NCBI GenBank assembly: GCA_977017645.1
Contig: OZ360242.1
Span: forward strand, 37,882,001 to 37,946,000
DNA length: 64,000 bases
Source: Torpedo marmorata
Taxonomy: Eukaryota
Direction of reading: 5' to 3'
In this document: piece after piece, positions 4,126 through 45,134 of the stretch
Numbering within the stretch: the stretch's first letter is position 1
How the letters are laid out: each line of letters begins with the position of its first letter
Notes under the pieces: model-generated
Told to the model about the DNA's origin: nothing
Database searches by the model: none
The model's input: the letters and a program-made list of their open reading frames with translations, nothing else
Position numbers and translations under genes: made by a program

Positions 4126-4210
4126 GGGAATGAGTTATTTGGAAATGAATGAAAGGAATTTGACATGCAGCAACAGGAAAGATAGATCGATTTGTCGGAT
4201 TTGGTGCTGC

Positions 4211-7970: not shown

Positions 7971-8011
7971 CATAACCGACGTTTCGGGCTTGAGCCCTTC
8001 ATCAAAGTATG
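7971..8011 (-). ncRNA. Minimal type-I hammerhead ribozyme motif (U3 variant)
   Basis: Minus strand CATACT-TTGATGA-A-GGGC-TCAA-GCCC-GAAA-CG-TC-GGTTATG: core boxes, 4-bp stem II, GUC cleavage triplet, stem I CATACT/GGT(T)ATG. Confidence 0.8.
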
Positions 8012-8196
8012 AGAAAATGCCAGCAGGCATCCGAACAAAGGAGTGAGGGGGGAAGGGGGGTGGGAAAGGCAGGAGATAATAGGTGGAGAAAGGAGGGAGG
8101 GGACAGCAGCAAAGAGGGGGAGGAGGGATGGCTGGGTGGGTGGAAAAAAACAGGAAGGACAGGTGAGGGGGGAGGGGAAGGGAACAACAAGCAGGT

Positions 8197-8615
8197 TTAG
8201 TGGAAAGCAGAAAAGTCAATGTTAATGCAATCTGGCTGGAGAGTGCCGAGACGGAATATGAGATGTTGTTCCTCCAATTTGCGAGTAGTCTGGGTGGGAT
8301 AGTACATGAGGCCATGGACAGACATGTGAGTGTGGGAGTGTGACCCAGAATTGAAATGGTTGGCTACTGGGAGGTCGCTGTTGTTGCGGACGGAGAGGAG
8401 GTGCTCAGCAAAGCGGTCTCCCAATCTACGACCGGTCTCTCCAATGTATAGAAAGCCACAAAGGGAGCACCGGATGCAGTAAATAAGTCCTCTGGATGTA
8501 CAAGTGAAGTGTAGTTTCACTTGGAAGGCCTGTTTGGGGCCCTGGACCGTGGTGAGGGGGGAGGTGTGGGTGCAGGTGTTGCACCTCCTGCGGGCACAGG
8601 GGAAGGTTCCGGGGG
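8197..8615 (-). pseudogene. PLE Cys-rich linker plus GIY-YIG endonuclease (open frame, lacks RT and start)
   Basis: PGTFPCARRRCNTC...FQVKLHFTCTSRGLIYCIRCSLCGFLYIGETGRRLGDRFAEH...KLEEQHLIFRLGTLQPDCIN. The Cys linker suggests the Neptune group. Confidence 0.88.
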
Positions 8616-8678
8616 TGTGATGGGTCCCACCCCCCTTCCCCCCTCACTCCTTTGTTCGGACGCCTGCCGGCATTTTCT

Positions 8679-8719
8679 CATACTTTGATGAAGGGCTCAA
8701 GCCCGAAACGTCGGTTATG
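8679..8719 (+). ncRNA. Minimal type-I hammerhead ribozyme motif (U3 variant)
   Basis: Identical 41-mer on the plus strand; predicted cleavage after GUC at 8710-8712. Confidence 0.8.
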
Positions 8720-9959
8720 TATTTCTACTTTTGCTACATAAAATACACTGTTTGACCTGCTGAGTTCTCCAGCATTTGTGTTTTTTACTTCATCCACGGT
8801 GTCTACAGATTTTCGTGTTTTACTTCCAAAACTTAAGTTTCAGTTGAAAAATATTTAGTGCTAGGGCCATAGGATTTTATGCAAGTGTTTAATGCTGTTC
8901 TCTATCACCATGGGGGACACTCTAAACCACAGGATATTAAGGTTCAGATTTTATACTTGGCATATAAGACGACCCTGGTTATGGGGTGACATTTTTAGGG
9001 TTCAAATTCTGTCTTATACGCTGACATATACGGTATCTATATTAGTCTCTATGGTCCATGGTTCATATGCCTTGACAATAAAATGCCTGTCAAAATGCTT
9101 CTTAAACATACAGTATTATCAGCAATTGTGTGTACAGAGCCATAATATTTCAGTTTTTTAATTATGGCCATATTCCTTTTTTTAAACTGATGTGTTAATT
9201 GATGATGATGAATGTTCACCTAATTTGTAGTATTAAACAAAAAAATAATTTGGATCAAGAATCTGAATGTCTCTGCGTAGGTTTCCCTTCTATACCCCTC
9301 ATAATTTTCTATACCTCTATCAATTTTCCCCTCATTCTCTGAAGCTCCAGCAAATAAAGTACTAACCTATTCAACTTTTCCCTATAACTCAGTTCCTTGA
9401 GTCCTGGCAACATTCTTATAAATTTTCTCTGCACTCTTTCAAACTTATTGAGATATTTCCTGTAGGTATGTGACCAAAACGGCACACAATACCCCAAATT
9501 TGGCCTCAGCATAACATCCCAACTCCTGTACTCAGTACTTTGATTCACAAAGGCCAACGTGCCAAAAGCTCTCTTTTACGACCCTATCTACCTGTGACAC
9601 CACTTTCAAGGAATTGTGCATCCCATATCCCTTTGTTTGATCGCTCCTTACAGTGCCCCATTGTTTACAGTGTATGTCTTACCCTGTTTTGCCCTCCCAA
9701 AGTACAACACATCACGCTTGTTTGCATTAAATGCCATTGGCATTTTGCCAGCTGATTCTGATACCACTGAAAGCCTTCCTCGCTGTCCACTACATCCCTT
9801 ATCTTCATGTCATTAAAGGTTGGTTAACATAATTGAGATTTGTAGATTAAGAATATCAGTGCAAACTTGGATTAGAAAAAAATATGTTAAGCGCGTCATG
9901 GTAGACACTAGGCTTTCTGACTGGAGTACAAGAGTCAATGGCATTCCTCAGTGTTAAGA

Positions 9960-10205
9960 CCACTGCTTGTTTTTTTTATATATCTCAGTAACCAGATTCA
10001 TGGATACCTTCTTTCCTGTCATTATCAGCCTCCTCAATAAACCTCGTGCTCGTAAAATTATGTTGCCTTTACTCTGTACCAACTGACCTCTCTCTGCATC
10101 TCTGCGCTCTGTGCAGTGTTTTATTTGGTGTACCATGTATGGGTTGACTAGCTGGATTGCTTGCAAAACCAACTTTCTGACTGCTCCTCAGTACATGTGG
10201 CAATA
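9960..10205 (+). mobile_element. Rex1-type LINE 3' UTR remnant
   Basis: ACCAGATTCATGGATACCTTCTTTCCTGTCATTATCAG (RFxxSFFP-like) followed by UTR ending CAATAAA. Confidence 0.55.
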
Positions 10206-10214
10206 AACTGGAAC

Positions 10215-12990: not shown

Positions 12991-13099
12991 CTAATGAAAG
13001 ACAGTAAATGCATTCAAAAACAGTGGGAACTCAGAGAGCAATGGGGATGAAAGAACTTAAAGCAATCAATGCAGCTAAATCAAAGGTTATGGATACACT

Positions 13100-17134: not shown

Positions 17135-17962
17135 ATAGAAGACTGCAGGTGCTGTGATTGTAGTAAAAACACAGAGTAAATGCTGGGGGACTCAGACGGT
17201 CTCGCATCCATAGGAGGTAAAACCCTAAGCCTTTCTTCAAGGTATAAGAAAAATAACCAAAATACCTAGGCTAGCATCTCAATAAAGGCTGAGAGAAAAA
17301 GGTAGAAGAATGAGAGGGGGAGGAGTCCAGACCAACAAACAAAAGGTGTTAATTGGATATGATAAGAGGAAAGGTGAGAATTGATTTTGGCTCTGTGAAA
17401 GGAGACAGAGAGAAAATGGAAGAGCGATAGAGAGTGAGAGAGGGAGGGAGAGAAAGAGAGAGAGAAAACTATGGGAAAGGAGACAGGGGGATGAAAATGG
17501 GGGGGGGGCATTTTAATTGACTCAAATTCTTCAGTGCGAACACAAAATTATTCAACAATGATTTCATCTTTATGAATTTAATGGAAACCAGAGAAGTCGA
17601 TGTTAAAGCCATCCGGTTGGAGGGTGCCCAGATGGAAGATAAGGTATTGTTCCTGAAATTTGCAGGTGATCTTAGTCTGGCAGTGCATGAGACCATGGAC
17701 AGACATGTCAGCAAGGGAATGGGACAGGGAATTGAAATGGGTGGCCATTGGGAGATCCACGTTATTGCAGCAGACAGAGCCAAGGTGCTCAATAAAGTGA
17801 TCTCCCAGTCTGCGCCCAGTCTCTCCGATATAGAGGAGACCACAACAGGACCACCGGATGGAGTAGATGACCCCTTCAGATTCACAAGTGAAGTGTTGTT
17901 TCACTTGGAAGGACTCTTTGGGGCCCTGAAAAGTGGTGAGGGAGGAGGTATGGGCGCAGGTG
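17135..17962 (-). mobile_element. 5'-truncated Penelope-like element
   Basis: ORF 17578-17904 GVIYSIRWSCCGLLYIGETGRRLGDHFIEH...FHLGTLQPDGFNI (GIY-YIG); terminal repeat with a partly deleted hammerhead at ~17220-17246. Confidence 0.9.
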
Positions 17963-19413
17963 TGTATTGTGCCCGCCTTACTTACCAGCTACTGTATAAT
18001 CTGAAGAATGTGGGTATAAGTGGAGAAGTTGATTGATGGTCTGTTATTAGGTGATTAATGTAGCATTGTTTAATGTTGGTGGCACCATTGTTGGTGGGTT
18101 GGACTTGTGGATGTTTTCACCAGTCTAAACTACATGTGAAGTCATCCAGCCTTTTCCAGCCAAACATTTAAGTCTATGTGAGAAAGGCAACTGGTGTTTA
18201 TCTCTTCGGAAACCTAACCCTACTGCTAGTTTATTTCCAGGCTAAAGGTGTTTTTGTCCTCTTGCCCGACCAGCCCCTTGATTTTCAACTGTGACAAATA
18301 TTTACACAGTTGTGTAGTAGTATTAGGGACCTGCCCCGTTCTTGGCTGTCCATGACTGCTCCAGAGACTCACAGACCTTTGGAATGGCTTCTGGCTGCAA
18401 TGATAGAATTGAGCACTTTCCCTTTAAGAAGTGCAGGTGTGACTTCAATCAGCCTCAGTTAGATCTAACTCGTGCTGAAGCTTCCTGAAATCACTTTGCA
18501 CTAATATACAGTATGTTAATACACAAGAGCTCAATTGATGCTGATTAAACACAAAAGTTATTTCAGGCGGCATACGCACAAATTTCAGGTGGAAGCAGCA
18601 ATGGCAGGAATCCCTTGCCTCATTACTAATGTAATGCTCATTTTTCCAGTGAAATCAAATGTATGTATTTTTCTGATATTGAAACAAAGGAAACATATAG
18701 TGAGCATATTCGATTTGATATGATGCTAAGTTTTTGGAAAAGGAAAGATATTCCATACAAGCTGTTTATCTTGTATTTCTTTGTATATTTGGAGATTGGT
18801 GTTTCAGGGGTCAGAATTTTGACTTGGTGTTGTCCAGGTGAAGATTCATGAGAGAAAATATTATCACCATAAGTAATGTTGTGGTATCTGAAAATCAGTA
18901 CTGTGGTCATCAGGATACATTCATTATTAGTAAACTATATTTGCTTAAATGAAAGTTGTTTAATGCTGAATAATGGCAATTCGATAGTAAGGCAAAGTTG
19001 TGTTTGTTGATTGAAATAATTATCCAGCGAATTTTGCAGGTGTGCTCTGCAATCTTGATGAGTTGTTATTGGTCACACAATGTATGATTTCTGCTACAGT
19101 TCTATGTTATTTCTCTCTTTTATAATTAAATTTAAATGGCTTTAGCTTTATTTGTTAATTGACTCAAATTCTTCAGTGCGAACACAAAATTATTCAACAA
19201 TGATTTCATCTTTATGAATTTAATGGAAACATTCTGGATCCGAAGACCATGACAGTAACTGCAAAAATAAATTCTGTTAATTTGAAGTTTTTGTGCTCTA
19301 TTTGAGAATATATCTCCAACTTGACTCCTGATATGTGGCAAAATGAAAATGTTTTCATAAATTCACACTGCAAGATAGTGGTTGTAGCATATATAGGCGA
19401 TAAATCAAATGAA

Positions 19414-20620
19414 TATCTTGAAGAAGGGCTCAGGCCCGAATCGTCAGTTATATGTTCGAATGCTGTTTTTTGACTTCAGCTCGGCATTCAACACGATCAT
19501 ACCTCAGTACCTGATAGGGAAGTTGAGGGGGCTGGGCCTAAACTACACCCTCTGTAATTGGATCCTAGACTTCCTGACGGGAAGACCTCAGGCAGTCTGG
19601 ATTGGAAACAGCACTTCTAAGGTCATTACATTGAGCACGGGGGCTCCCCAGGGCTGTGTGCTTAGTCCATTGCTGTTCACCCTGCTGACTCATGACTGCA
19701 GCAAAACACAGCTCGAATCACATCATAAAGTTCGCCGATGATACAACCGTGGTGGGCCTTATCAGTAAGAATGATGAGTCAGCATACAGAGATGAGGTGC
19801 AGTCGCTAATGGAATGGTGCGGAAACAACAACCTGCAACTGAACGTAAACAAAACAAAAGAGTTGGTTGTCGACTTCAGAAGGGCCCGGGGGGATCATTC
19901 TCCATTGACCATGGACGGCTCTACCGTTGAGGTCGTAAAGAGTACCAAGTTTCTTGGAGTGCACTTGGCGGAGAGTCTCAGCTGGTCCCTAAACACCAGT
20001 TCCATAGTCAAGAAAGCCCAGCAGCGTCTTTACTTCCTGCGAAGACTGAGGAAAGTTCATTTCCCACCCCCTATCCTTACTACATTCTACAGGGGATGTA
20101 TTGAGAGTATTCTGAGCAATTGCATCAACGCTTGGTTTGGTAACTGTACCACCTCGGACCGAAAGACACTGCAGAGGATAGTGAGGGCAGCGGAGAAAAT
20201 TATTGGAGTCTCTCTCCCCACCATGACAGACATCTACAACACACGATGCATGAGGAAGGCTAAAAACATTGTGAAGGACTTCTCACACCCCTTTGGTAAA
20301 CTGTTTTCCCCTTTGCCATCTGGAAGGAGGTACCGAAGCACTCGGGCTCGTACGTCCAGACTATGCAACAGTTTTTTTCCCCCAAGCCATCAGGCTCCTC
20401 AATTCCTAGATATATATGTGTACTAGCATGCTATAGTTTTTTCTATTGTATTATGATATTTATGTACATCTGCCCATGGTCCTGGAGAAACGCTATCTCG
20501 TCTTACTGTGTATATGGTAATGAACGACAAATAAAGGTGACTTGACTTGATATACCTTTACCTCCTATGGATGCTGCGAGACGTGCTGAGTTCCTCCAGT
20601 ATATCTATGTTTTCACTCAA
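19414..20620 (+). mobile_element. Solo PLE terminal repeat (mutated hammerhead) split by a Rex1 insertion
   Basis: TTGAAGA-A-GGGC-TCAG-GCCC-GAAT-CGTC at 19418-19445. The repeat resumes at 20551 (TATACCTTTACCTCCTATGGATGC...GCTGAGTTCCTCCAG), matching the repeat at 17160-17220. Confidence 0.8.
19451..20550 (+). mobile_element. 5'-truncated Rex1/Babar LINE, RT domain with one frameshift
   Basis: [52 protein letters not shown]; AATAAA and (GACTT)n tail. Confidence 0.92.
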
Positions 20621-23600
20621 ACCAAATGGAATAACAATTTGACGCTTGTCGTCTTGTCCAACCCATGGAAGTTAATGGTATTCACTTTTGCATCTCTGAA
20701 GTTAAATGAATATTCCAAAAAAAATTGTTCTTTATTGGCATTTCATAAAGCAGTTCTGGCCTTTGTGCATTTGATGGTGGTTCTTCTCAGCTTTGGGATT
20801 ACAAAGTCTAATTATATATGCTGGCAGTCTTCAAAGATGTTCTTGGTTAAGTCAGTTTTCCTCACTAAATTTCAAAGGATCTGAATCAGTTGGCTTGTCT
20901 GCAGAATTTCACATAGATGTGATCATTTTTCCAATGTATTCCACATGTGCGAGCACTCATGTGAGCTTGTTGGTATGTATTATTTAAATACATTTGTCAA
21001 TGGTCATGCTGATCTCAACTCCTTGAGAATCATCTAGTGATGCTCCAAGGAGTGTCACCAACAGTGCTTTATGATTCATAAAGTTACACTTCTTATTCAT
21101 TCGTTTTGATTAGAAATGTTTCACTTTTATACCCTGTTACTGATTCCAATATTTTGCAAAGGAGCACTGTAGAATATACATATTTCATTCTTTAATGTTA
21201 TAACAATAGGTAAGTTACATTTTTTTAAATTCTTGAGTTCCAAGTCAGATGAATAAAATCTGGTTGTACAATTGTTCAGTTTGATTATAGTGATATGAAA
21301 CTGTAAAAATCTGAAAGATACAGTGAGATCACTACCTATGAAATTGATTTATTATCTATAGACTATCCCAAAGTCTATGTTTGGAATATATATTGCAATG
21401 CAATTTCATGTAACGAAATTACTATATCAGATCTTCATTATACCACCAAAATGATTCTCAGAAAATTATTAACAATGACACAAACTCTAATCATAGGTGT
21501 TGTCCTCAGTTTCTGGTGTGGGCATTATATTTGTCTATATCTGTGTATTATTGTTGAGAGATCTTTGCAGCTGCCAGCACTGGAATATTACACTTTTATG
21601 AGCATTTGGTTAGTTTATTCTTCAGTTACAGAATCTTGTACATGTTTATACTTCAGCCATTGACAGGCTGTCTCAACATAACTGGATTACCTTACATTGG
21701 TGAGGTGCTTGATTGGGTAAGTGCCAGGCTTAAATGAATTATAAGCCTCTGAAGTCTTAACTGATGCCTGTATCTTGCACTGACTGGAACCAATGTTGTT
21801 TCAACTTTTGACCAGTATAATTCAGAGTTATTACTTAAAAATGGTTAATTGTTTCTTTTATATTTTCGTGGGATATTATCCCAATCATAAACAGGAACAT
21901 GAAAATTATTTCCTCTAATATTGCATCACCCATTCATTCTACTCTTTGTGATATTACTGCCATTAATCTTCATTATGCCCCACCTTTTTAGTTGCACAGT
22001 CATTTCACATAGAAACAATTCTGATTCTTTTGAATGCAAAATTGTCCTGTTTGTTGTAATTATCGAAAAAAATATATATTATACATGTATAGGTACTTTT
22101 AATGGTTTTGGATTTGTTTGTGTGAAGGTCTGAAAACCAATTTGAGACTGCCCATACTTCAAAGTCACTCCTAATGTTATGTCCTATTGACATCATACAG
22201 TTCCTATAAACTGTGTCTAACCTTCTGAATTTATAGTGTTCCATAAATATCTGAGTAAGAAGTGTTCTAATTTTTTTATGTCACAAAGATCTTCTCGCTG
22301 GATTGGGTGTAGTACAGTGACTAAACTTCTTCCACGCCACAATACTGTGAATGCAAAATGATGACAAAAATAACACCAGCAAAAGAAAGTTTAGATTGTT
22401 ACACAGTTGCTTGGTACTATTTGTTATCCAAGTGATAAAACTGCAAGTCACTAAAAATAAAACACATTTGAACTTGCCATCTGTCAGTCAAATAATAATG
22501 GCATATACACAGTTCTAATAACTCAATCTCTGACAACCTAAGTAGATTTTGGTTCTGTTATAGGTATGTTAATGGAATTTTTTCTCAATATATAATGTTC
22601 AAGAACAGTTGATTCATCAATATAATTTATAAATATTCTTCTTAAATTATAACTTCTCTTCTATCAAGCTGTCTGAAATGCTACCAGCAGGATTCTTTGT
22701 GGCTGTCTTTGAAATATTTAATTTATTCCACATTTTAACATTTGTGTTTCTTCTTATGTTTCCTAAGCAGCAATTAATTATTTATCAGCTAATAGATTTA
22801 GCATGCTTGCTGGCCTAGCCTTTTTGCTATTAATGCTCCAGGGATTAAATGGGTTGAAGTACAGTAGTTTGCATTGCTTGAAAATATTTTCCCCAAGCAT
22901 GTTTTCCTGGATTCTCATTCTCTGGCTCATACTCCAGAGGAGAGACTGCCTACCAACAGATGCAGAAACGCAAATGTGTCCTCATCTCACTATTCATTAG
23001 ATTCTTCTCTTCAATTTATAGTTTAAAAACCACCAAAGGTTTCACTCTCTAAAATAAGTATCATTCATTTCCAAAAATGATCATTCAACAGCTTCTCCTG
23101 CTCTGTTCTTGCATTAATATGTCTATGGGAGATCAGTCGGTGAAAGTCTCAAGGGTTAGAAAGATGGGTCTTCTTTCATCTCTTCTCACATTGCTTCCAA
23201 CATTTTATGTAAATTACTTCCCAAAATTGCTCTTCCTCTTTCACTGAAATTCAGCCCATGGGGCCTCCAGTCTATTCTCCATTCTTCTTAGTCATCCTAC
23301 AATCCTTCTTTGGATTATCTGATGACAGGATTCATAAATCTTGTCACCACTGATCAAATCCTACTCCCTTTGCAACTCAGAGTGATGTTTGACAGATTTT
23401 CAGCGTTCCAGAAAATCTTGGACCTCTACCAATCCACCTGTTATTTCTGCCAGTGCTACACTGTTAATCTCATTTATCAGATTTATAGCTACCGGTAGTC
23501 TTGAATTATCTTGCTGGATGGGAAGCTGTTAATATACTGTAATATATTGTTTGTTATAAAGGATCTCTGAATAGGAACACCAGGATTTCTGAAGACAATA

Positions 23601-28010: not shown

Positions 28011-29717
28011 AATTGAATAGGTCATGTGTACCAAGATGGAGTAGAAAGTTTTGTTTTGCATCTTATCCAGGCAAATCAAATATACTTGTCAAATGTACTT
28101 GTTTTGTATAATCCAAGTGGCAAATTGTGACAGATAGTTTGTGCTTCAGAATCAGACATAACGTGGCAACTTAACACTTTAATTACAGTAATTAATTAAT
28201 TGTCTTTAGTATTGCACTTAGGGACATGAGTATCCAGGTGGTGGTGTTGGGGGAAGAAAGTGATGGAACAAGGCTGATTCAACATGGTGCAAATTCATTT
28301 AAACTATATCTTTTCACATTTCGCTTGTGAGTCCTTTTATCTACATTTATAATACAAACTACATCTGTAAACTTGCCACACTGTAATTAAACCCACCTTC
28401 CACTTTGGGATGACAGTATTGCAGGTTGTAGGGTATAATTACAGTATGGCAGGTATTTGTTTGCATCTAAAATGAAACATTGCAGTAATTTAAATTTCTT
28501 CATTGTGCAGACACCTCCCACCACAGCCTCCACCCCCACCATCACCAACAGAAGCTCTTGGAATGCCTGGACTACAAGTGATGTGCATTTCCGTCATGTA
28601 AATGAGAGGAAATACATCAGACGATCTATCTCCCATGGTTATCTTATGAACCTCCAACCATTGCTTATGTCTGAAGGAAATGACTAGACCTTGTCATTGG
28701 GGGAGCACAGTAGTTGAGAGCATAGCTCCAATGGAGGTGCAGTAGAAAGTCTGTTTTTGTTTGATTACTCAACATAAAAGTTAAGGCACGGTTGGCGTCC
28801 TCCAATGTGTGTATTCCATATTGTTAACAAATGCATCCAGAGATACATTATCCCGTTTTCCACTTTCTGTGTTCTGTCTCTTATTTGCCATTAGTCAGTA
28901 CTGAAAGTTTAATGGCTGGAGCACACTAGATCCATGAAATGGATCCCTATTGTAAAAACCCGATTGTCTTCACTGGGGAAAAATATTTTAACTGGCTCAC
29001 TTACATCCTCGCCTAAACTCGAGGAAAATATAATTTTGCAAAGAGTTTGATACTTTTTGGCTTTAAGACTATTAGGCACTGTTTTGAATTTCTGTCAAAC
29101 AAAACATATAAGGATTGGAACATCAAGATGGTGGGTGTTTACCAGGAAGTGTTGTTCCGAGGCTTCATTTAATAACCATCGCATCTTATTAGTGAATAAA
29201 AATGTTCTCTGAAATTGATAAAGTACATCATAGAATTATTCTGTTGGCATAAAATAACTGCTAAATAAGCTTTCCATTTTTGGGATGTGAATAATTTCAC
29301 TTTGGTTATTTTTGTCTTTCCCATCGCTGGCTTGTTCTCATAATTGTAATGGAAGCTTCGAACTTCAAAAGTGAAATGGTTCACTAGTGAAAGAGTCGCA
29401 AATTAAATAACCTCACTGAGCATCCATTCTGATTTCTGTTGATTATACCTACCGTTGCACAATATGCCAGTGATGGAGAACTGAGTCTATGGAGTTCAAT
29501 AGTGGGAACAAAAACCAAGTGAGAATAGTGTGGCCTCCTCTACATCGGTGAGACCAAAAGCAAATTGGGTGACCGCTTCATTGAGCATTTAATATCTGTG
29601 GGTCCAAACTTGAGATTCCTGGTGCCAGCCTTTTTAACTCCTCTAACCATTCCCACATTGACATGTCTGACTTTGTCAGTGTGAGGCAAATGTAAACTTC
29701 AAGAATTACACATCATT

Positions 29718-32700
29718 ATTTTTATTATCTTCACAGGTTCAAGATAGAATAACGCAAGCATCTTATAAAGCGAGAATAATTTCTGATCATTCACCTTTAT
29801 TAATATCTTGTATAATTCCGGAAAAAGAAAAAACTGTATATAGTTGGAGATGTAATTCTTCTTTATTAAAAAGAAAAGATTTCTGTGATTATATGAGAAG
29901 GGAAATTCAGGAATTTTTACAAATAAATTCTAATTCTACTAATAATAAATTTATTATATGGGAAGCTTTAAAAGCTTATTTAAGAGGTCAAATAATAATT
30001 TATTCAGCAAAAATTAAGAAGGATTATCTTAGGGAGGTAAACAACTAAGAGAAGGAAATTGAGTGTTTGGAAAAGGTTTACAAAAATAGATCAATTCAAA
30101 AAAGGAATAATCTAGTTGGGAAAAAATTACATTATAATTTATTACAAACATACAAAATGGAAAAATTAATTGAAAGAACTAAACAAAGATATTATGAGTT
30201 AGGGGAAAGAGCACATAAAGTTTTGGCATGGCAATTAATAAAAGATCAAGCTTCTAGAACTATAAATGCTATTAGGAAAAAGAATTCTAGGGAAATAACT
30301 TATAAACCTCGAGAAATAAATGATTCTTTTAAGGATTATTATTTAAATTTATATAAATCTCAGATTGATCAAGATAACTCTAAAATTAATAGATTTTTAT
30401 CTAAAATTACATTACCTAAACTAAATATTCAAAGTAGAGAAGCTTTAGATTTACCTTTCTCAATGAGGGAAGTTAATGAAGTTCTTACTTCCTTAACGAG
30501 TGGTAAATCTCCAGGTGATGATGGATTTCCAGCAGAATTTTATAAAGAGTTTAAAGATTTATTGATACCTCCATATATGGATGTATTAAATCAAATTACG
30601 GAAACCCATTCATTACCAGACACATTTTTAAATACAATAATTACAGTTATACCTAAAAAAGATAGAGATGTATTGAAAACTGAATCATATAGACCTATTT
30701 CATTGTTAAATGTAGATTATAAGATAATGGCAAAAATTTTAGCAAATAGAATTGCTAATTATTTACCAGATTTAATTCATGTAGATCAAACTGGTTTTAT
30801 TAAGAATAGATATTCAAAAGATAATATAGCTAGATTAATTAGTTTAATTAATTTTCAAAAAAAGAAGGAAGATTTACCATTAGTATTAACGCTAGACGCC
30901 GAAAAGGCTTTTGATAGATTAGAGTGGAATTTTTTATTTAAGGTATTGGAGAAATTTGGTTTTGGAATTACATTTATTAATTGGATTAAAACTATATATA
31001 AAGAACCATATGCTAAAGTAGTTACAAATGGACAAATTTCTTCAAGATTTCCTTTGACTCGATCTACTAGTCAAGGATGTCCTTTGTCACCAGCGTTATT
31101 TATTTTGGCGATAGAACCTTTGGCAGAATTAGTTAGAAAAGATCCTAAAATAGTTGGTATTAAAGTTGGAATGGAAGAACATAAAATTAGTTTATTTGCA
31201 GATGATGTATTGATATATATGATAAAATCTACTACATCTTTAGTACAATTGTCTGCGTTATTGAGAGAATATGGGGAAATATCTGGATATAAAATTAATT
31301 CTGATAAAAGTGAAATTATGGCATTATCACAAGGGGATTATAGTAAATGTAAAGAAATTATACAATTTAAATGGGCAAAGGAAGGAATTAAATATTTGGG
31401 AATAAGGATTGACACAAAATTGGCTAATTTATATAAAATTAAATTATTTACCATTATTTGTGAAAATAAAAAAGGATTTAGAAAATTGGAAAGATTTACC
31501 TATAACTTTAATGGGAAGAGTAAATTGTATTAAAATGAATGTTTTTCCAAGAATTCAATATCTTTTTCAATCAATTCCTTATGAAATTCCTCAAAAATCT
31601 TTCAAAGATTTAAATTCAATTATTAGAAAATTTTTATGGAAAGGAAAGTTAGCAAGAGTAGGTATGGAAAAATTAACTTGGAATTATGAAATGGGTGGTT
31701 TACAACTTCATAATTTCCAAAATTATTATAAAGCAGCTCAATTAAAATTTGTTAATGAATTTTTTGATTCAACTAAATCTTCTGCTTGGATTAAAATAGA
31801 ATTAAATAATATAGGAGAAGATTCCAAAGAAGAAGTTATTTATAAATGGGATTCTAAATTAATATCAACAAGAAAGAAAAATTCTCCTATTCTTTAACAT
31901 TTGTTAGAAATATGGAATAAGACGGATAAGGAAATAGGAGGAAAAGGATTGATTTCTTCAAGGATGCCTTTATATCAAAATTGACTTATTCCATTTACTA
32001 TTAATAATCAATTATTTAAAATTTGGTTTCAAAAAGGAATTAAGAAAATAAATGATTGTTTTGAAGCTGGGAAATTTATTACTTTTCAAAGAATGAAAGA
32101 TACATTTAATATATTAGATAATACACTTTTTGCTTATTATCAAATTAGAGCTTTTCTGATTGAGAAATTAGGTTATGCTTTGATTTTACCAAGACAGAAT
32201 GAATTAGAATTATTAGTTACTAAAGGAGATGTCAATAAATTTATTTCTCAAATGTATAAATTGTTTCAGAGGAAAATTCCTAAAGTAGGAATTCATAAAT
32301 CAAGATTAAAATGGGAATTAGATTTGAATGTAACAATAGATGAAAATCATTGGAAAGAATTATGTAAATTAAGTATGACGAAGATTATTAATGTTGGATA
32401 TAGATTAGTACAATACAATTTTTTTCATCAATTATATTTAACACCTAAAAAACTAAAGAAATTTAATCCGACATTATCAGGTTTATGTTTTAGATGTAAT
32501 AAAGAGGAAGGTTCTTTTGTACATTCTACATGGTTTTGTCCAAAAGTTTATGATTTCTGGTTGAAAGTTAAAAAAATTTTAGATAAAGTATTTAAGATTA
32601 CATTTCCAATGGATCCTATGATATTTTTGTTTGGAGATATTAGAAAATTTAGTATTAAGATGAAATTAAATATGTATCAAATAGATTTTCTGCAAATTGC

Positions 32701-33152
32701 TTTAGCTGTTTCAAAGAAATGTATTGCTATTACTTGGAAATCTGATCTCGATTTAGGGTTAGAAAGATGGCATGCAGAACTTCATTCATGTATACCACTT
32801 GAAAAAATTACTTATAACTTACGGAATAAATATCATTTATATTTAAAAATATGGAGCCCATATATGAAAGTTGTTGGCTTAAGGATTTGAAGATCTCTGG
32901 ACATTGGATCTACTGGCTACCTGACCTCCATAATAGAATTAGTTTATAGATGTATTTATTAGATTGACATTCTCCTTACCTTATCCTTTTCTCTTTCTTC
33001 TCTTTTTTTTAATTATTTTATTAGATTAGTGGGGAGGGGATGGAGGGAGGGGGAGGGAGGGGGGGTGAAAATGTATCACAAGTATTTGATAATTTCATAT
33101 TTTATTTTATGTATTTTGTGATTTAAAATTTTTAAATAAAATAATTAAAAAA
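29718..33152 (+). mobile_element. 5'-truncated L1 LINE: ORF2 (end of APE, RT, Cys domain), 3' UTR, poly-A, 17-bp TSD
   Basis: SDHSPL, KSPGDDGF, YRPISLLN, LDAEKAFD, QGCPLSP, LFADD, CFRC..H..WFC; a few stops and frameshifts; TSD AAGAATTACACATCATT at 29701-29717 and 33153-33169. Confidence 0.95.
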
Positions 33153-34063: not shown

Positions 34064-34099
34064 AGTCTTGATAAAGGGGCCAGACCTGAAACATTGACT
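34064..34099 (+). ncRNA. Decayed hammerhead motif of an older PLE subfamily
   Basis: AGTC-TTGATAA-A-GGG-GCCAGA-CCT-GAAA-CATT-GACT; stem I AGTC/GACT. Confidence 0.5.
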
Positions 34100-34540: not shown

Positions 34541-36253
34541 TTTTTATTTAAATTTTTTTTGAATATTTTATTTGTATTTTTTTTAAGCCAAACATATTAT
34601 CAATAACAAAAATAATACATCATCGAATATAATATTCGTATGCTGACTATTATACTAAAAAACAACAAGAGTACAAACAAAGAAAACCCACCCACCCAGT
34701 TCCCCCTAAAAGAAAGAAAGGAGAAGAATGGAATTAGAAAAGGTTGAAGCAGAAAAGGAAAGAAGACGTTGGAGGTTCGTCGTCCACCCCGCAGGCTTAA
34801 ATTACTTGGCTTACTCAGATTTTTAAAGAGGAAACGGACATAGGTCCTGAAGGCGAGGGGGGTCCTAGCTATAGATTTACAAGTTGAGATCTTATTTAAG
34901 GGATAAATTGGGCCCATTAATGACCTTACCGAAATGCAGTGATGTAAACCATATAACAATTACAGCACGGAAACAGGCCATTAGGCCCTTCCAGTCCGCA
35001 CCGAACCAAAACATTCCTATCTAGTCCCACCTACCTGCACCCTGCCCATAACCCTCCACTTCCCTCTCATCCATATACTTGTCCAACTTTTTCTTAAATA
35101 CTAAAATTGACTCTGCCGCCACTACTTCTCCCGGAAGCTCATTCCACACCGCTACCACTCTCTGAGTAAAGAAGTTCCCCCTCATGTTACCTCTAAACCT
35201 CTGCCCCTTAACTCTTAGCTCATGTCCTCTTGTTTCAATCTCTCCTATTCTTAATGGAAATAGTCTATCCACATCCACTCTGTCTATCCCTTTCATAATT
35301 TTAAATACCTCTATCAAATCCCCTCTCAACCTTCTACGCTCCAAAGAATAAAGACCTAATCTGCTCAATCTCTCCTTGTACTCTAAATTCTTAAACCCAG
35401 GTAACATTCTGGTAAACCTTCTCTGCACTCTCTCCACTTTGTTGATATCCTTCCTATAATTTGGCGACCAGAACTGCACACAGAACTCTAAATTAGGCCG
35501 CACCAAAGCCTTATATAATCTCAACATCACTTCCCAACTCCTATATTCTATGCATTGATTGATGAAGGCCAGCATACTAAAAGCCTTCTTCACCACCGTA
35601 TTCACATGAGTGGAAACTTTGATCCGAAAGGGGATCACAAAGAAGTTTATTTCAGCAGCCTATCTTTTACTACATAAACGAACAGCTAAACAGGGGCTAC
35701 ATAGATCTAGACAGAGATGGGAATCAGACTTGTATATAATAATTGATGAACAAAACTGGTCCGACTTATGTCGGGACAGTATGAAAAATACAATAAATGT
35801 GAGATACAGACTGGTGCAATATAATTTTTTGCACCAGTTATATCTCATGCCGCAAAAATTGAATAAATTTAAATCAGAAATATCAGATAAATGTTTTAGA
35901 TGCAGCAAAGAAATAGGAACGTTTTTACATTTAATCTGGTCATGCCCCAAGGTAAAACCTTTCTGGACGGACTTAGGGAAATTTTTAGAACAAATTACAG
36001 AAATTCTGTTCCCACAATGCCCAGAATTATTTCTATTGGGCAATATCTCCGGCGTAAGACCTAAGATGTGGCTGTCAAAATTTCAAATAAAATTTGTAGA
36101 GATCGCATTGGCGGTGGCCAGGAAATATATAGCGGTCACATGGAAGTCTGATTCCCATCTAGGTATGACAAGATGGAATGAGGAAATGTACAGCTGTGTT
36201 CCCCTTGAGAAGATTACCTACAATCTTAGAAATAGATATGATATATTTTTAAA
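34541..36253 (-). mobile_element. L1 insertion with 5' inversion (twin-priming structure)
   Basis: TSD GAATTCCAGCTAATTT at 34525-34540 and 36254-36269; minus-strand A-rich tail and 3' UTR at 34541-~34877; plus-strand ORF2 C-terminus at ~34878-36253, homologous to 32140-32860. Confidence 0.85.
34947..35620 (-). mobile_element. Young CR1 LINE 3' fragment inserted in the inverted L1
   Basis: Uninterrupted ORF VKKAFSMLAFI...LYKALVRPNLEFCVQFWSP...ERRRLRGDLIEVFKIM; CR1 3' UTR GGCCTGTTTCCGTGCTGTA. Confidence 0.93.
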
Positions 36254-37111
36254 GAATTCCAGCTAATTTGAAATAGTCACTCACTGAAAATTACATAGCC
36301 TATTTGTTACTTGCTGCTTGCTGGCCTGCATGTAGATATAATCCATGTTCATCTGCAGTTTGATATTGTGAATGGAGTTGAATACCTTAAGAAAGAACAA
36401 AATTCTCCAATATATCTGTAGAGAATAGTTGAGCCAAGAAAATTTCCCTGAAGAATTTCGCGGTCACGTTGAAAGCTACGATCAATGGGCATGACCAAGG
36501 CATTTTTCTTTGCAGGATTTGTTATAAGCTCATAGCTTGTAGTTGTAGAATAGCTTGAGTTGGGAGCTGCAGAATCTGGTGCAACAGTGGGATTTTTCTC
36601 ATGGCCTACAGCCCATGTTGTGTCCAGGTAACACTCCATTCATTAAAATTTAAAATTTCCGTTGATCTGTATGAAATCACGGAGAGCCTCTGCTGAACAA
36701 AGCTTTCAAGATCCACTCAGGTTCATATTTGATATCCAAGTATATTGCTTTTTGGATATGTTCCTGGAGGTCAGGTTACTAACAACTATTCTTTGAAGTA
36801 AAAGTTTATATTTCTGGCACTCAGCTATAGGGAACACTTTATGCAAGTACTAATCCTATCTCTCAGTATCCCAAGCTCTTCCACTGACCTTCTGTAACCT
36901 AACAAAGGTATGAACCTTAACACAAGGAGTTGTGAAAACAAGTAAAATGCCCTTTTTTGTCCTGTTACTTCTCTGTGCAGTGTTCAATTAATAATGGAAG
37001 TGCTAAAAAATATTTAAACAAAAGTAAAATATATATATATTTTTTTTCCAAACACAAGATTTGAATTAATATTATCTTTGCATTTGTCACATTCTCTATT
37101 TTGTACTACTG

Positions 37112-37964: not shown

Positions 37965-40759
37965 AAAGCAAGTTTTTTTTTTTCAAGAGTCAGATCTCTT
38001 GAGCCATGAAGATGCTAAGAAACACTGATGCTGATGTTTATCCAGAAACAAAGCGATAACTGATTTGCTAGAATGTTTCCATAGCCAAGTAAGACCTGAC
38101 ACCTGATTTCGTAGGAAAGTTTTTGGTTCTTTTTTGGCATTGCACAATGTGAAAACAAATGGGATAGGTGGTTTTGGGGGAAAAAAACATGCTGCACAGT
38201 CAGCCAGGTTAATAAATGAAGAATGATTAGACCTTCTGCTGAGACGTTTGATATCACTAATGCTGGAAGAGCAGTTCAAAGATATCTCGTGCAATTTGTT
38301 TGACCCACTGAGGTGAGGAAATGAGCAATTTCATTATTTTATATTATTTAGGGATTGTTTGAATTAAGTAACCATGATCTTGGGTTTATTTGTGTGAAAT
38401 AAAGCAGCATATTGATTAGTATCAGGCCTCGTGTGTTTCTTCAACTCGTCTTCAGTTATGGTGAAGAAATAGTTGTGCAGGAGAAAAGTACATCCCAGTG
38501 CATGTTGAAGGAAGGTGAGATTATCATTCATACACACATTGTAGTGCGAGTTAGCTTCTATTCACAGGCAATGGTGACACAAATTGTGTTGAGTCCAGAT
38601 GTCACAGAATCTAAATATCTATGGCAGAAGTAAACTTAAAACAGTAGCTCTTTATTTTGTTGAAAAAGCTTTACTTCTTTCTTGGTTCCCATAATCAATG
38701 TAAATCTATAAAATTACAATCCAAAATTGAAATAAAGGAAAATAAGATAATTGCTTAGAAATTCAATAGTGGAATACTTTTTTTGTGAGTAAAGTGCATT
38801 TAAAAATAACTTTATATTTAATGAAGTGCAACACATGACTTACAACTTCTGGTGCTGAACATAAACTGTTGGAGAAACATAGCAAGTCAGTCATTTTATT
38901 GCATCTCCACAATCATTTCCAGGTTGCTTCATGTGGCTCCAGAAATCCAGCAGGGCACTTCCAGGTACGAGACAACCATAAAGCCCTGAAGGGATCAGCA
39001 CAATAACATCACTCCCTGTTCCTGGACCAAATTGTCTAAGTTCAAGTTTAAGTTCACTATTACTTGAGGAATGCCTATGCACAAGGATCGACAACACTTT
39101 GTGTGATTGCATACGTTTATGTCACTTATGGTCCATAGTTGTAAATGTAAATAAATGCTGTTTTAGTCATTCATCGGGCAAATTGTGCAGCCATTGGTGT
39201 TTCTGAAGGAGACAGCCAGAATTCAATCATTCATACTGAAGTTTGTCCCAGATTTACACCAATTTGGTCCAAGAATTATTGAAGGACAAATGCTGCCGTG
39301 TCCGCCACCAGGTTTGAATCCCAGTGAATCTAGCTGTGAAGCTTGGATTGGCTTACCTTGGGATTCCCCTCTTAAGCAGACACCACATTCTTTGCAATCA
39401 AAAATCTTGGCCTTTGGAATGAGGAAAGTAAATTATTTTCTTCAATGATTTTCTTAAAAATTATATTATCTTATGTTTTAATGTATTTTAAATAAAATAG
39501 TTTTCATGTATTCATCAATTATACAATTTTAATTATGTTAAATGTCTTTGAATGTCAGAGACAATTAAACCAATAAAAGCTTTAGCAGCAGACAAAGCCC
39601 TGGCCTCTGTTTTCCTCCCCATCAAAGCCTGTTCTAGGGGTCAGACTTCAGCACGATACTGCAGGTGGTCTTGTATTTCTTGACACCTCATCGTGCCTCA
39701 GAAGATCAAAAGTGAATAAATAGCCCTGAATCTGTGGTCGGCAGTGAAGCCACAGCATAAGATGCTGACCCTGAAGACAGTTCCCAACACAATCTGCTGA
39801 GCTCTGCAGAGACGATCCTCCCATTTATTTGATGCCGAGGCATTCCTGGCACTCAGCATCTTTGATGTCATTAAGCTGGCTAAGCAGCTAATTACATTAT
39901 TTTCCCATATAGTATACACAGAAACAAATGGGCAGTTTTTAATTAACTTTTTAAGCATTCTAGAGATTGCCTCGCAATGTCTGGAACATAAACGATAGAA
40001 AGATTCTGCAAAAAGAAATATATTATACATATATCTATTTTACTGTATCTTGAAAACATTGTTTTGAAATATAAATGTGGTAACTAATGACACGTAAAAT
40101 TCATTTATTTAGATCAGAGTTTGCCAAGTATGAAATATTGCTTCATCAACGCACTTAAACTTGACAGAAGTACAAGATTTACAGGGAAATTTAAAGTGAG
40201 CTCATTGATAAGTAGCTTGCAACAGCATCAGTTCAACTGATTTCCCTTGATTGCGATGAGGAAGGTTACCAGCAACTCAATGATGCTTTCAATTACAGCC
40301 CACAACTTTCTTGCTAATCCATGCTTGCAGAGATATCCAATCCGTAGCAGTGGCTTTGCTATTATAAAAACTACATTGTTTTTTAAGCTTCATGAAGACT
40401 ATAAAAAAATTACCTTACAGAAGTATACATTTTTTTTATTTTACTTGTAAAGTATAGGAACGCTATGTTGAAAATTAGCTAGGACCAGTTTTCTAGCCTC
40501 AATTTTGGCAGATCTCAGAAGCGAGAGGACCAGTGGTTGATAGGAATTGATCATCACATCTCACCTGAACAACCACTGTGATGCCATTATTTGTCCTTCC
40601 AGTTTGTTCAGGGGTTGATGGCAATTTTGAGTCACTTGAGGTTCCCATCTCTGAGGGATGCTTCAGATAGGGGATGTGGGGAAATAGTGACTGCTACATG
40701 AAAAGGGAGGTGAGCAGTTGGGGATAAGGATTAGGTCAGGGTAATGTGCCAACTGAGAA

Positions 40760-41078: not shown

Positions 41079-41083
41079 GAAAA

Positions 41084-41670
41084 TGGGCAGCTCAGTGGCT
41101 CGCAATGAAAGAGTATGCACACAGACATCAGCAGTGATCCAGGTTCAATCCTGATGTCTGGTGCCATCTGTGTGGTGTTCCCACATTCTCATTAACTTTA
41201 TGGATTCCTAAATTGGATAGGTGAATCAAGACAAGACAAAGTCATTTCCCCTTGATAATGGGGCATCAGTCACCTCCTTTATGGAGCCATAAAAAGAAAG
41301 CTGTGAGATGTGGTGGATGCCACTGGAAGTATCCTGAAGTTTGAAGCTGAGAATGATCGTCGCTTTCATGAGCAAAGCAGACTTTGGACATGTGTGAGCA
41401 CATAGGTCAGAGGAAGTCACAGATTTCATTGTCTTGCTGAAACATAACCCAAGTAGGAAAGTCTATTTATGAGCATGGGTCCCTGTGAACTCCATGACCA
41501 TTAGATATTTAGTGATGAGTTCTTATCCCAATGGCTGCCCATGCTATCTCTGATGCCTGTAATCCATTTTCATGCCATATAGCAAGAGAAGTCTACAGTG
41601 TCCGGCACAGGCATCATGGACTGAAGGGCCTGTTCCTGTGTTGTTAATGTTCCATGATCTTCTGTGTTCT
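41084..41670 (+). mobile_element. Second V-SINE-like head (41084-41220) and CR1-type tail (41605-41670) with unrelated sequence between
   Basis: GGGCAGCTCAGTGGC...CAGGTTCAATCCTG head; GGACTGAAGGGCCTGTTCCTGTG tail. Confidence 0.55.
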
Positions 41671-41680
41671 AATTCCCCAT

Positions 41681-42558
41681 AGATTTCAGATTTCAGATTT
41701 ATTGTCAGAGTACATACATGATATCACATACAACCCTGAGATTCTTTTTCCTGCAGGCGAAATAGAATTACCACTTATTGGTAGTGCAAAAAGACTGTAC
41801 ACAACTATACATGTAAACAAATAAAGAACTGTAAACAGATAACGAATGTAAACAAACTGACTGCAATACAGAGAGAATTTAAAAAATCAATAAAGTGCAC
41901 AAGTAAGAGTCCTTAAATGAGTCCCTGATTGAGTTTGTTGTTGAGGAGTCTGATGGTGGAGGGGTAACAGCTGTTCCTGAACCTGGTGGTGCGAGTCTTG
42001 TAGTACCTATACCTCTTTCCTCATGGCAGTAGCGAGAACAGAGCGTGTGCTGGGTGGTGAGGGTTTTTGATAATTGCTGTTGCTCTCCAACGGCAGCGTT
42101 CCTTGTAAATCTTCTCGATAGTGGGGAGGGTTTTGCTTGTGATGACCTGGTCTTTGTCCACTACCTTTTGGAGGGCTTTACGCTCAGATGGATTGGTGTC
42201 CCCATACCAGACCGTGATGCAGCCGGTCAGCACACTTTCCACTACACATCTGTAGAAATTTGCCAGGATTTCTGGTGACATACCAAACCTCCGCAACCTC
42301 ATGAGGAAGTGGAGGCGCTGACGTGCTTTCTTCACGATGCCATTAGTGTGTTGGTTCCAGGTAAGATTCCCTGAAATAGTGACTCCCAAGAACTTAAATT
42401 TGCTCACCCTCTCCACTTCTGATCCCCCAATGATCACTGGATTGTATACCTCTGGCTTTTCCTTCCTGAAGTCAACAATCAGCTCCTTAGTTTTGGTGAC
42501 ATTGAGTGCAAGGTTGTTGTTGGTGCACCATTCAGCCAAGTTTTCAATCTCCCTCCTG
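41681..42558 (-). mobile_element. Rex1-type LINE 3' fragment
   Basis: EWCTNNNLALNVTKTKELIVDFRK...FKFLGV...KARQRLHFL; (CTGAAAT)n tail. Confidence 0.92.
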
Positions 42559-45018
42559 TATTGTAGTATTGTAGTCAGTATTGTAGTCTGTTTTTAGGAT
42601 CAATGAATTGTTTGAGGTGAAAGGTGAACAGTAATGCTCCTGAGTCCTCTGGAGGAGCACGCAAAAGCACTTTGAATGTTGGCACTTCAAATAACTCCAT
42701 TTCAGGGAAACAGTTTTAGTGAAAGACATTTGTACTGTGAGCAAATAACTGAGGTTCGTGAGGTTGAGTCATACAAGAGATGAATATTGAGCATTGGCTT
42801 ATTGTTGATAGTATTTGTGGAGTCATTGTTTCTTCTGCTTACAAAAATCTTGCTGATGAGACAGCTGATGAACTTCCTGCCAGCAATTATAGGCAAGAAA
42901 AGACATAATATTGTCCTATGCTGGGTTAAGACCATTTTCAATCATGTAGCGCGTTCTTTTCCAGTGATGTGAGAAGAAATCTCCAGGCAATGAAAATGTA
43001 GCCAATTTTTTTACAAACTCAAAAAGAGTGATCGAGAGAATTAATGTAAAAATGGACCCAGTGATGCTATAAAACAGATGCATGTCCTCCAGATTAACCC
43101 ATAATGCAATAAAGTCGGCTGGAAAAGCTGTCTAATTCAGTTTAATGTGGTTACAAAAAACTGTTAACAGAGTTTGTGTTAATGGATTTTGGAAAAAAAA
43201 AGTGACCATTTGGTGCACTTAGATATGAAATACAATGCTGATGGCTCTTCTTGTAAAATTGTCCAGCTATGTATTTGAATCACACATTTGTCATTAACAT
43301 CATGTCACGGTGCACGCATGCTCATTCATACGTAAAGCACTCAACCAACCAACTCATCCATGCAATAAATGAATAAATAACACAATACCACTCACTTTGT
43401 GTATTATGACACAAAGGAACATAATTGCAAATGCATTTTAACGTAGTATCTGCTGGTGTACTTGATCTTTCCCTTTTCAAGATTATGAATGACTGTAGCA
43501 CCAACCAATTGGAGCTAATTTGACTTATTGGGGATAATTTGGATTTTGATTTGTGGTCTAAAATGGGTGTAATTGATTCTGCCAGTCAATAAAAATGAAA
43601 AGCAAGAGAGAGGTATTGCACTTTTGAGTACAATATGTCATTCTGGTTAAACTGTCCTCAATTATACCAGCCAGGCCCTTTTCATTTTTGTGATGGGTTG
43701 CTTTTTGGATACTTCAGCCAGAAAGAGTTTAAATTCCTTTCATTGCAATCTTTGTTGCTACGGCAGTGTGTGTTTGTTGAAATCTACCGCAAAAGTTCAA
43801 GTCAATGGAGCCATATTTTTGAAGTGAACTGCAATTGAGACGTACTGCCCCATGTGTTCAATGCATGCAACCAAGGAATCATTTCAGCCCCCATCCTACG
43901 AAGTTCGAATGCAGCAAAGAAAGAGGCCAAAAGCTGAAGCTGACGCCACCCTGAGCTTTTAAGGGTCATTTGAAACTTCAGGTCAAAGAGAATTGAATAT
44001 TTCAATCATTATATAATACAGATTCTTTGGCATAGATGAATTGTTTAAAAAAAAAAGCAATGTCACCCAGCTTGTACCATCAAAATAGAGCACTAAACAT
44101 ACCTCTTTGATGTAAACTTAATTATTTTCAATTGATTTGATGTGTAAATGGCCAGCAATTGCTTTGAATTGCACACTACATTACCTTCCTCTTCTGATCC
44201 TGGTCAAAATGTTAAAACTGTTTGCATAGGGAGTTCCCCTGCCACAATGCGGACTTTGACCACCATGAATATTGCTTGCACCAACCTCACTTGGGAAAAA
44301 TTGGACCCAGCATCGTCAATATGCCACACTGAGAGAATGGAGCTTCAATTCATCCTCTAAGTACCATCCATACATCAGTAAATACATCCCACTGACATTT
44401 TCTCTTGATTTGTAGGGCAGTAACTTCTTATATTTGTACAAGAGGGAATCTGTTAACACCAGTACTGTCATTACAAACTTGACACCTTCCCCCTCAAGAT
44501 GTAATATCATCACTTCTCCTCCTATCTTTTTTTCTCTATCTGGCCCACTGCTTCAATCACTGTCATTATCACAGGGAAGCATTCCCCAAAGCAAATCCTT
44601 TCATAATCATAAATAGATAACAAAACAGAATAGCAAAAATCCTTTAGCATATTGTCATATGTGTTGTTTCACAAATGTAACTTGTCCATTACTATTTGAC
44701 TGTCATGCTTAAAAAGAAAGAAAAAAAAATGAGGCAACATTGTCTTTGTTTCATTGAATATCACAGGCGAGGTTGCATATATTTCAAAGAGAAATTGAAA
44801 TCTAATTTTTGGTTTGAGTAGAAGCATTGGAAGAACAGCAAGTGATAAATTGCAGAATTTTAAAAAACACCATCTCTTCATCAGAGTTGATGAAGGACCA
44901 CTAAAAGTTCATTTTTAATTGTCTCCATTTTTTTTTGTTTACTTGTTTTAACAATACTTTTTTCACTTTTGTGTTAAGTTACAGATTCAGTCAAACATTG
45001 AAGCATCATTGTAAGAGG

Positions 45019-45134
45019 CATTTTCTCATACTTTGAAGAAGGGCTCAAGCCTGAAACGTCGGTTATGTATTTCTACCTTTGCTACATAAAAGACACTGTT
45101 TGACCTGCTGAGTTCTCCAGCTTTTGTGTTTTTT
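45019..45134 (+). mobile_element. 116-bp solo PLE terminal repeat with 11-bp TSD
   Basis: Near-identical to 8671-8787; ATTGTAAGAGG at 45008-45018 and 45135-45145. Confidence 0.92.
45027..45067 (+). ncRNA. Minimal hammerhead ribozyme motif (U3 variant)
   Basis: CATACT-TTGAAGA-A-GGGC-TCAA-GCCT-GAAA-CG-TC-GGTTATG; differs from the 8679 copy only at variable N7 and a G-C to G-U pair. Confidence 0.78.

What the first reader, a model, noticed from the sequence alone, without database searches (positions are those of the whole stretch)
7971..45067. Dispersed family of minimal hammerhead ribozymes with a fixed U3 core variant in Penelope terminal repeats
Seen: seven copies of one motif (434-473 -, 7971-8011 -, 8679-8719 +, ~17220-17246 -, 19414-19450 +, 34064-34099 +, 45027-45067 +) with consensus stemI-UUGANGA-A-GGGC-loop-GCCY-GAAA-CG-UC-stemI'. 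The intact copies vary only at N7 and at a G-C/G-U stem II pair. The older copy has a different but still complementary stem I (AGUC/GACU). Every copy has U at core position 3 instead of C, so this is the family state and not decay. Established: PLE pseudo-LTRs carry minimal type-I hammerheads whose loopless palindromic helix III (AACGUC here) is thought to form as a dimer, and C3 normally pairs with G8. Inference: this lineage uses an attenuated U3.G8 ribozyme to cut out its retrotransposition template. The general PLE-hammerhead link is known; whether this family is described cannot be told from the sequence.
Basis: partly seen in the sequence, partly recalled or inferred. Interest (0 to 1): 0.8.

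Follow-up and report, generated by a model that had tools for sequence, protein, structure and literature searches.

The report
Variant hammerhead motif in Penelope retrotransposons
A very abundant jumping gene carries a small self-cutting-RNA motif of a known kind with one core base changed; the change is the norm in this genome, but it has appeared in print before, and nothing in the DNA shows that the motif cuts out the element's RNA template.

Summary
The motif is real. It is the minimal type-I hammerhead in the terminal repeat of a Neptune-type Penelope-like element (a 738-aa RT + GIY-YIG frame lies in locus L201). U3 is the inherited state: the young motif has 71,610 copies with U3 and 320 with C3; a generic pattern gives 124,806 versus 3,909.

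The window holds fewer independent intact copies than reported. 7971 and 8679 are two arms of one insertion, 17220 is half a motif, and 34064 is U3-A8, not U3·G8. Older subfamilies carry C3-G8, U3·G8 or U3-A8, the C3/A8 mismatch is rare (41 of 1,237), and stems I and II covary, so the fold is conserved between subfamilies.

The template-excision reading gets no support. Copies do not begin preferentially at the cleavage site (814 versus 870 in a control window), and a published Penelope-like element inserts in vitro without hammerhead cleavage. A U3·G8 hammerhead from a Penelope-like element is already printed in the 2014 supplement of Cervera and De la Peña. Catalytic activity is untested. 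Verdict: new member of a known kind, with a useful natural series of core pairs.

The parts
8679..8719 (+). Intact minimal hammerhead, young subfamily. Stem I 8679-8684 with 8713-8719 (closing U.G, one bulged U); U3 8685; G8 8690; extra A 8692; stem II 8693-8696 with 8701-8704; GAAA 8705-8708; loopless palindrome ACGU 8708-8711; C17 8712; predicted cut 8712/8713
7971..8011 (-). Identical intact hammerhead in the 3' pseudo-LTR, about 190 nt after the endonuclease stop, same strand as the ORF
8197..8643 (-). 3' end of the element's ORF: CX4CxxC linker and GIY-YIG endonuclease (Pfam E=4.6e-4, below the curated cutoff)
7904..8823 (.). One insertion: a 5'-truncated element (-) joined to an inverted pseudo-LTR (+) that carries the optional ~35-nt tail
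7890..7903 (+). Left target-site duplication (right copy 8824-8837)
45019..45134 (+). Solo pseudo-LTR stub with an intact U3.G8 hammerhead (45027-45067; N7=A, G.U at 10.1-11.1); 11-bp target duplication 45008-45018 / 45135-45145
434..473 (-). Older-subfamily hammerhead, U3.G8, stem I closed by C-G, CpG-type changes in helix III; endonuclease remnant beside it at about 678-1050
17220..17246 (-). Half motif: 5' core strand only, internal deletion removes GAAA and the cleavage site; endonuclease remnant at 17578-17988
19414..19450 (+). Short stub of another U3.G8 subfamily, damaged at A15.1
34064..34099 (+). Old-subfamily hammerhead with a compensated U3-A8 core and stem I AGUC/GACU

Best explanation
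The copies are dead 3' ends of a Neptune-type Penelope-like retrotransposon. Its pseudo-LTR holds the known minimal type-I hammerhead. In a head-to-tail unit the motif stands shortly before the ORF start and again after the ORF end, about 3.7 kb apart, so one transcript can hold two copies that pair through ACGU (layout shown, pairing inferred). Position 3-8 has been held as C-G, U.G or U-A in different subfamilies, and the most abundant young ones carry the U.G wobble (shown). The motif most likely remains a slow cutter that needs a partner copy or the element's protein (inferred). Its cut does not set the ends of the RNA that gets inserted: copies end at two tail sites on the 3' side, and their 5' ends do not pile up at the cleavage site (shown for DNA copies only).
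For: Open 738-aa frame with DKG, RT and GIY-YIG motifs. Tail-to-5'UTR-to-ORF junction in L023/L024, which are one locus. U3 versus C3 counts. Of 69 copies found by downstream sequence alone, 48 had a readable core: 39 U3.G8, 4 U3-A8, 2 C3-G8, 3 damaged. Old stem-I group: 226 C-G, 526 U.G (by subtraction), 444 U-A, 41 C/A against about 105 expected if independent. Two-sided changes in 3 of 8 pairs, 96.5% of cells paired versus 25-50% when slid. No excess of copies starting at the cut. Low in vitro activity of minimal hammerheads even as dimers (PMC4209133); protein-assisted and dispensable cleavage in the anole element (PMC11167929).
Against: No cleavage was measured and no RNA ends could be seen (contigs only). 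The 32 rows were hand-picked from pattern-selected copies, so the 100% pairing at 3-8 is by choice and the rows are related. The 2x2 counts are copies of a few families, not independent events; the 41 C/A copies fit simple decay. The monomer's best fold pairs the core strand with the cleavage site instead. From memory, C3U alone strongly lowers cleavage in other hammerheads; the papers on this were not held. Young copies show no extra conservation in the core (3.0-3.8% versus 4.0-5.6% in flanks), as expected for dead copies.
Confidence: 0.5

Rival explanations
1. In the U3.G8 subfamilies catalysis is lost. The hammerhead-shaped sequence persists as a structural, protein-binding or promoter element of the pseudo-LTR.
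For: The wobble has persisted through several successive subfamilies without compensation, and the youngest also weakened the stem I closing pair to U.G. The monomer folds off-pathway. 7 of 38 young copies have their 5' end 2-12 nt upstream of U3 versus 2 in the next 85 nt, which suggests a boundary role. Naiad elements thrive without canonical hammerheads (PMC8557442 passages).
Against: The catalytic positions U4, G5, A6, A9, G12-A15.1 and U16.1 are invariant across the subfamilies aligned while N7, loop 2 and the stems change (partly by pattern selection). A U3-A8 subfamily restores a Watson-Crick pair that matters only in the folded active site.
Confidence: 0.3
2. One reading: an attenuated U3.G8 ribozyme cuts the unit-length retrotransposition template out of a longer transcript.
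For: The role proposed for these motifs by Cervera and De la Peña. The tandem layout puts two motifs in one transcript. The fold is conserved between subfamilies.
Against: 814 copies break in the 7-nt window over the cut versus 870 in a control window 8 nt downstream; about 17 of the first 100 listed break at the cut itself (my count). In the anole element, unprocessed RNA was the main substrate and no RNA-seq reads ended at the cut. The test has one control window and is dominated by truncated copies, so rare full-length events could be missed.
Confidence: 0.15
3. U3 is a neutral founder change in a motif no longer under selection, carried along by successful master elements.
For: No extra conservation among young copies. 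A few masters can set the genome-wide majority.
Against: Compensatory changes in stems I and II and a U3-A8 subfamily. U3 rows are rejected as one clade (AU p=0.0145).
Confidence: 0.05

Closest known systems
Minimal hammerheads (min-HHR) of metazoan Penelope-like elements (Cervera and De la Peña 2014, PMC4209133)
   Same: Type-I topology, no loop 3, palindromic 15.2-16.2 (CG), an extra base between 9 and 10.1, G10.1-C11.1, placed in pseudo-LTRs, mostly solo truncated copies. Fig. S3 lists a U3.G8 representative (Saccoglossus kowalevskii 1, PLE-associated) and U3-A8 ones (Schistosoma mansoni 3, 4).
   Different: U3.G8 is the majority state here (at least 124,806 copies, against 4,000-9,000 min-HHRs in coelacanth and Xenopus), and C-G, U.G and U-A subfamilies coexist. 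The main-text parts I read (1-2 of 4) discuss U3-A8 only.
Neptune clade of endonuclease-bearing Penelope-like elements (as described in PMC8557442)
   Same: One ORF with RT then GIY-YIG, CX2-5CxxC linker, CCHH-type residues, DKG motif, pseudo-LTR, inverted truncated arm, optional 30-40 bp tail.
   Different: No RT tree was built; Nematis shares the linker. This ORF has a long proline-rich repetitive N-terminal part.
PAc (Poseidon) element of the green anole (PMC11167929)
   Same: Two reverse-transcription start sites that define a tail; hammerhead near the pLTR-ORF junction; no sign of ends at the cleavage site.
   Different: PAc has C3-G8 and its ORF starts inside the hammerhead; here the ORF starts downstream of the tail.
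Non-LTR retrozymes with canonical type-I hammerheads (PMC7229834; bioRxiv 10.64898/2026.07.22.740005)
   Same: Type-I hammerhead in an animal repeat of Penelope origin.
   Different: Here the motif is minimal, dispersed and attached to an RT-EN element, not in short head-to-tail arrays.

Membership tests
PLE minimal hammerhead | Core CUGANGA ... GAAA ... UH | tested here: not met
   Position 3 is U; all other core positions fit. The defining paper's own Fig. S3 includes such a U3.G8 member, so this does not exclude it from the family as published.
PLE minimal hammerhead | Extra nucleotide between 9 and 10.1; G10.1-C11.1 pair | tested here: met
   A at 8692; G-C, or G.U in part of the copies
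PLE minimal hammerhead | Loopless helix III with palindromic 15.2-16.2 | tested here: met
   ACGU at 8708-8711
PLE minimal hammerhead | Helices I and II supported by compensatory change between families | tested here: met
   3 of 8 pairs with two-sided change (U-A/C-G, G-C/A-U, C-G/U-A) on 32 hand-picked copies
PLE minimal hammerhead | Located in the pseudo-LTR of a Penelope-like element | tested here: met
PLE minimal hammerhead | Self-cleavage as a dimer or with protein help | not testable with these tools
   Only assembled contigs were available
Neptune Penelope-like element | Single ORF, RT followed by GIY-YIG endonuclease | tested here: met
   L201:4593-6806, RVT_1 E=1.7e-6 and GIY-YIG E=5e-4, both just under the Pfam cutoffs
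Neptune Penelope-like element | CX2-5CxxC linker before the endonuclease | tested here: met
   C-x4-C-x2-C in the frames; definition
Neptune Penelope-like element | Pseudo-LTR, inverted 5'-truncated arm, optional tail | tested here: met
   Window 7904-8823; L201, L203; tail scored in 19 of 38 young copies
Neptune Penelope-like element | Placement in the Neptune clade by RT phylogeny | not tested
   No reference RTs were fetched
Non-LTR retrozyme / canonical type-I hammerhead | Short tandem units with a canonical hammerhead | tested here: not met
   Copies are dispersed or inverted arms of PLE insertions; no Rfam hammerhead match

The most novel reading that the evidence does not exclude
This genome records a ribozyme active-site pair being turned down more than once: C3-G8 went to U3.G8 in at least two lineages, one of which went on to U3-A8, while the other kept the wobble and became by far the most abundant. 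Weakened self-cleavage would then be selected because it spares the full-length template, and the subfamilies would form a natural series for testing what the hammerhead does for Penelope-like elements.
Probability: 0.12. Interest if true: 0.65.

Novelty: new member of a known kind. Interest (0 to 1): 0.33.

Why it matters
What the hammerhead does for Penelope-like elements is still open (passages of PMC8557442 and PMC11167929). Here related subfamilies differ at one active-site pair (C-G, U.G, U-A) and have very different copy numbers, which gives ready-made natural constructs for a cleavage assay. There is also a practical point: a search that demands CUGANGA would miss about 97% of such motifs in this genome (3,909 of 128,715 for the generic pattern). 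The link itself and the variant core are not new.

Tried and rejected
Rfam scan of the window to E=5: no hammerhead family, only microsatellite look-alikes. Folding z-scores of single copies were not significant (-1.5 to +0.6), so they give no support either way.

Four were laid. They hold related repeats, with common changes at 8684 (T>C) and 8712 (C>T). Position 8685 was not among the 40 rows shown, but 96 rows were hidden, so I draw no firm conclusion on U3 in other species. No RNA ends could be read.

I considered reading the U3 form as C3 plus an inserted U. I rejected it for the old subfamilies (stem I AGUC/GACU fixes the register) and for the youngest one (no C available). One intermediate subfamily does occur in both a short C3 form and a one-base-longer U3 form, so an insertion may be how U3 arose in the young lineage.

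A young U3-C4 'family' (L186-L199) proved to be one dead copy carried inside a larger duplicated block. Scripts had pattern and slicing errors and are replaced.

Lünse 2017 and Przybilski 2007 are not held; either may already treat U3.G8. bioRxiv supplements are closed and may list chondrichthyan families. Literature searches for C3U, U3-G8 or cartilaginous-fish cases found no paper on this family in the held library, which lacks most subscription papers. No protein homologue search or RT tree was run.
Full report
Observation. The seven places contain the stated letters and all have U at core position 3. Three are intact U3.G8 motifs (7971, 8679, 45027). The first two are arms of a single inverted insertion, 7904-8823, with a 14-16 bp target duplication; the third is a 116-bp stub with an 11-bp duplication. 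The copy at 17220 has lost GAAA and the cleavage site, 19414 has A15.1>U, 434 has two CpG-type changes, and 34064 has A8 and is therefore a U3-A8 form. Rfam finds no hammerhead. The genome is 6.22 Gb. I recall similar repeats from cartilaginous fishes, but that is memory and was not tested.

The element. The minus-strand motif at 7971 lies about 190 nt after a frame with a CX4CxxC linker and a GIY-YIG domain. Seven of 36 distinct young copies extended to or near the 1.5-kb edge of their loci. L201 holds an open 738-aa frame with DKG, RT and endonuclease motifs (both Pfam hits just under cutoff). L202 holds a near-complete 3.66-kb unit. L023 and L024, one locus, show the pseudo-LTR running through the tail into the 5' UTR and ORF start, so a head-to-tail transcript would carry the motif at both ends. 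The linker fits Neptune or Nematis as defined in PMC8557442 (passages read); no RT tree was made.

U3 is inherited. The exact young motif occurs 71,610 times with U3 and 320 times with C3; several of the ten C3 loci viewed are junctions or single mutants. A generic pattern gives 124,806 U3 against 3,909 C3. Searching 898 kb (random stretches, the window and locus flanks) with a downstream-only profile gave 69 copies, 48 with a readable core: 39 U3.G8, 4 U3-A8, 2 C3-G8 and 3 damaged.

Subfamilies differ at the 3-8 pair. In the old group with stem I arm AGUC, 1,237 copies split into 226 C-G, 444 U-A, 41 C/A and, by subtraction, 526 U.G; about 105 C/A would be expected if the positions were independent. 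These are copies of a few families, so the p-value there is not an evolutionary test. U3-A8 copies share their own downstream sequence. On 32 hand-picked copies (one of 33 candidates dropped for a deletion), 96.5% of cells pair and 3 of 8 pairs change on both sides; slid controls pair 25-50%. A tree of 62 flank sequences over 102 columns places C3 rows at the base of a starred 48-row clade that contains the young U3 subfamilies, apart from the old U3 ones. With 47 rows kept (unassigned rows, U4C rows, rare C3 copies of U3 subfamilies and one long branch dropped), one clade of the 30 U3 rows is rejected at AU p=0.0145. The alignment is short, the tree is unrooted and the group was tested after I saw the first tree, so two origins are likely but not shown. 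Within 31 young copies the core diverges as much as the flanks, as expected for dead copies.

Does it cut the template? If inserted cDNA came from RNA cut after C17, copies should begin at 8713. Copies broken within the 7 nt over the cut number 814, against 870 for a window 8 nt downstream; about 17 of the first 100 break at the cut itself by my count. Instead 7 of 38 young copies (two of them arms of one locus) begin 2-12 nt upstream of U3, against 2 in the next 85 nt. The monomer's best fold pairs the core strand with the cleavage site (-11.8 versus -7.7 kcal/mol for the hammerhead-like fold). No RNA ends could be examined.

Comparison with print. PMC4209133 (main text parts 1-2 of 4, supplement parts 1-2 of 3) defines the minimal PLE hammerhead, reports low activity even as dimers, and describes U3-A8 in Schistosoma. 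Its Fig. S3 also lists a PLE-associated Saccoglossus motif with U3 and G8. I saw no cartilaginous fish among those rows. PMC11167929 (parts 1-2 of 4) found the anole hammerhead protein-assisted, killed by C3G or G8C, and dispensable for insertion in vitro. PMC3088659 (passages) reports natural U3-A8 covariation. The 2026 retrozyme preprint (parts 1-2 of 5 and passages) samples one chondrichthyan. PMC6765202, PMC7151607 and PMC7229834 were seen as passages. Lünse 2017 and Przybilski 2007 were not available. Earlier notes of this scan concern U3-A8 cases in other genomes and were not checked.

Verdict. A known kind of motif in a known kind of element. What is added is the scale, the dominance of the wobble form, and coexisting C-G, U.G and U-A subfamilies. 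The most likely working is a slow, partner- or protein-dependent cutter that does not define the inserted template (0.5); a non-catalytic remnant is next (0.3); template excision is less likely (0.15). Interest 0.33.

Noticed in passing
window 8680-8684 and equivalent places in L010/L011, L020, L021, L025, L028, L095: 5' ends of young copies cluster in the 5' arm of stem I (7 of 38 within 2-12 nt of U3), often as inversion junctions. Possible causes: transcription start, reverse-transcriptase stall, or microhomology with the element's TACT terminus. Unexplained.
   Followed up: partly
L186-L199: Near-identical copies with a U3-C4 core, mostly towards contig ends; more than 2.3 kb of shared flank shows one dead copy inside a duplicated block.
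   Followed up: yes
L172, L174-L185: One subfamily occurs in a short C3 form with a poor stem I and a one-base-longer U3 form with a good stem I; U3 may have arisen here by insertion and register shift.
   Followed up: partly
L039 versus window 8679-8719: With C3 the off-pathway monomer fold is predicted at -14.9 kcal/mol, with U3 at about -11.8 (windows differ by 2 nt), so U3 may weaken misfolding in the young subfamilies. Speculative.
   Followed up: no
L023/L024: An internally deleted derivative joining the first ~108 nt of the ORF region to the endonuclease end.
   Followed up: no
L202:3447-4700: The element's N-terminal region is long, with 57-bp repeats and a proline-rich tract.
   Followed up: no
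window 3588-3638, 20555-20623, 38848-38893: Further pseudo-LTR remnants lacking the hammerhead, weak scores.
   Followed up: no
window 29671-32890, 35610-36266; 19689-20426, 42021-42593, 47442-47873; 35021-35659: LINE-type remnants: an L1-like element with a 494-aa RT frame (Pfam E=1e-41) and fragments of other non-LTR families (family labels from memory).
   Followed up: no
window 59981-60060: (CT)n directly followed by (GA)n, a perfect hairpin-forming microsatellite that draws false microRNA hits in Rfam.
   Followed up: no
L206:1-4785: Tandem array of about 60-bp units next to a Penelope insertion.
   Followed up: no
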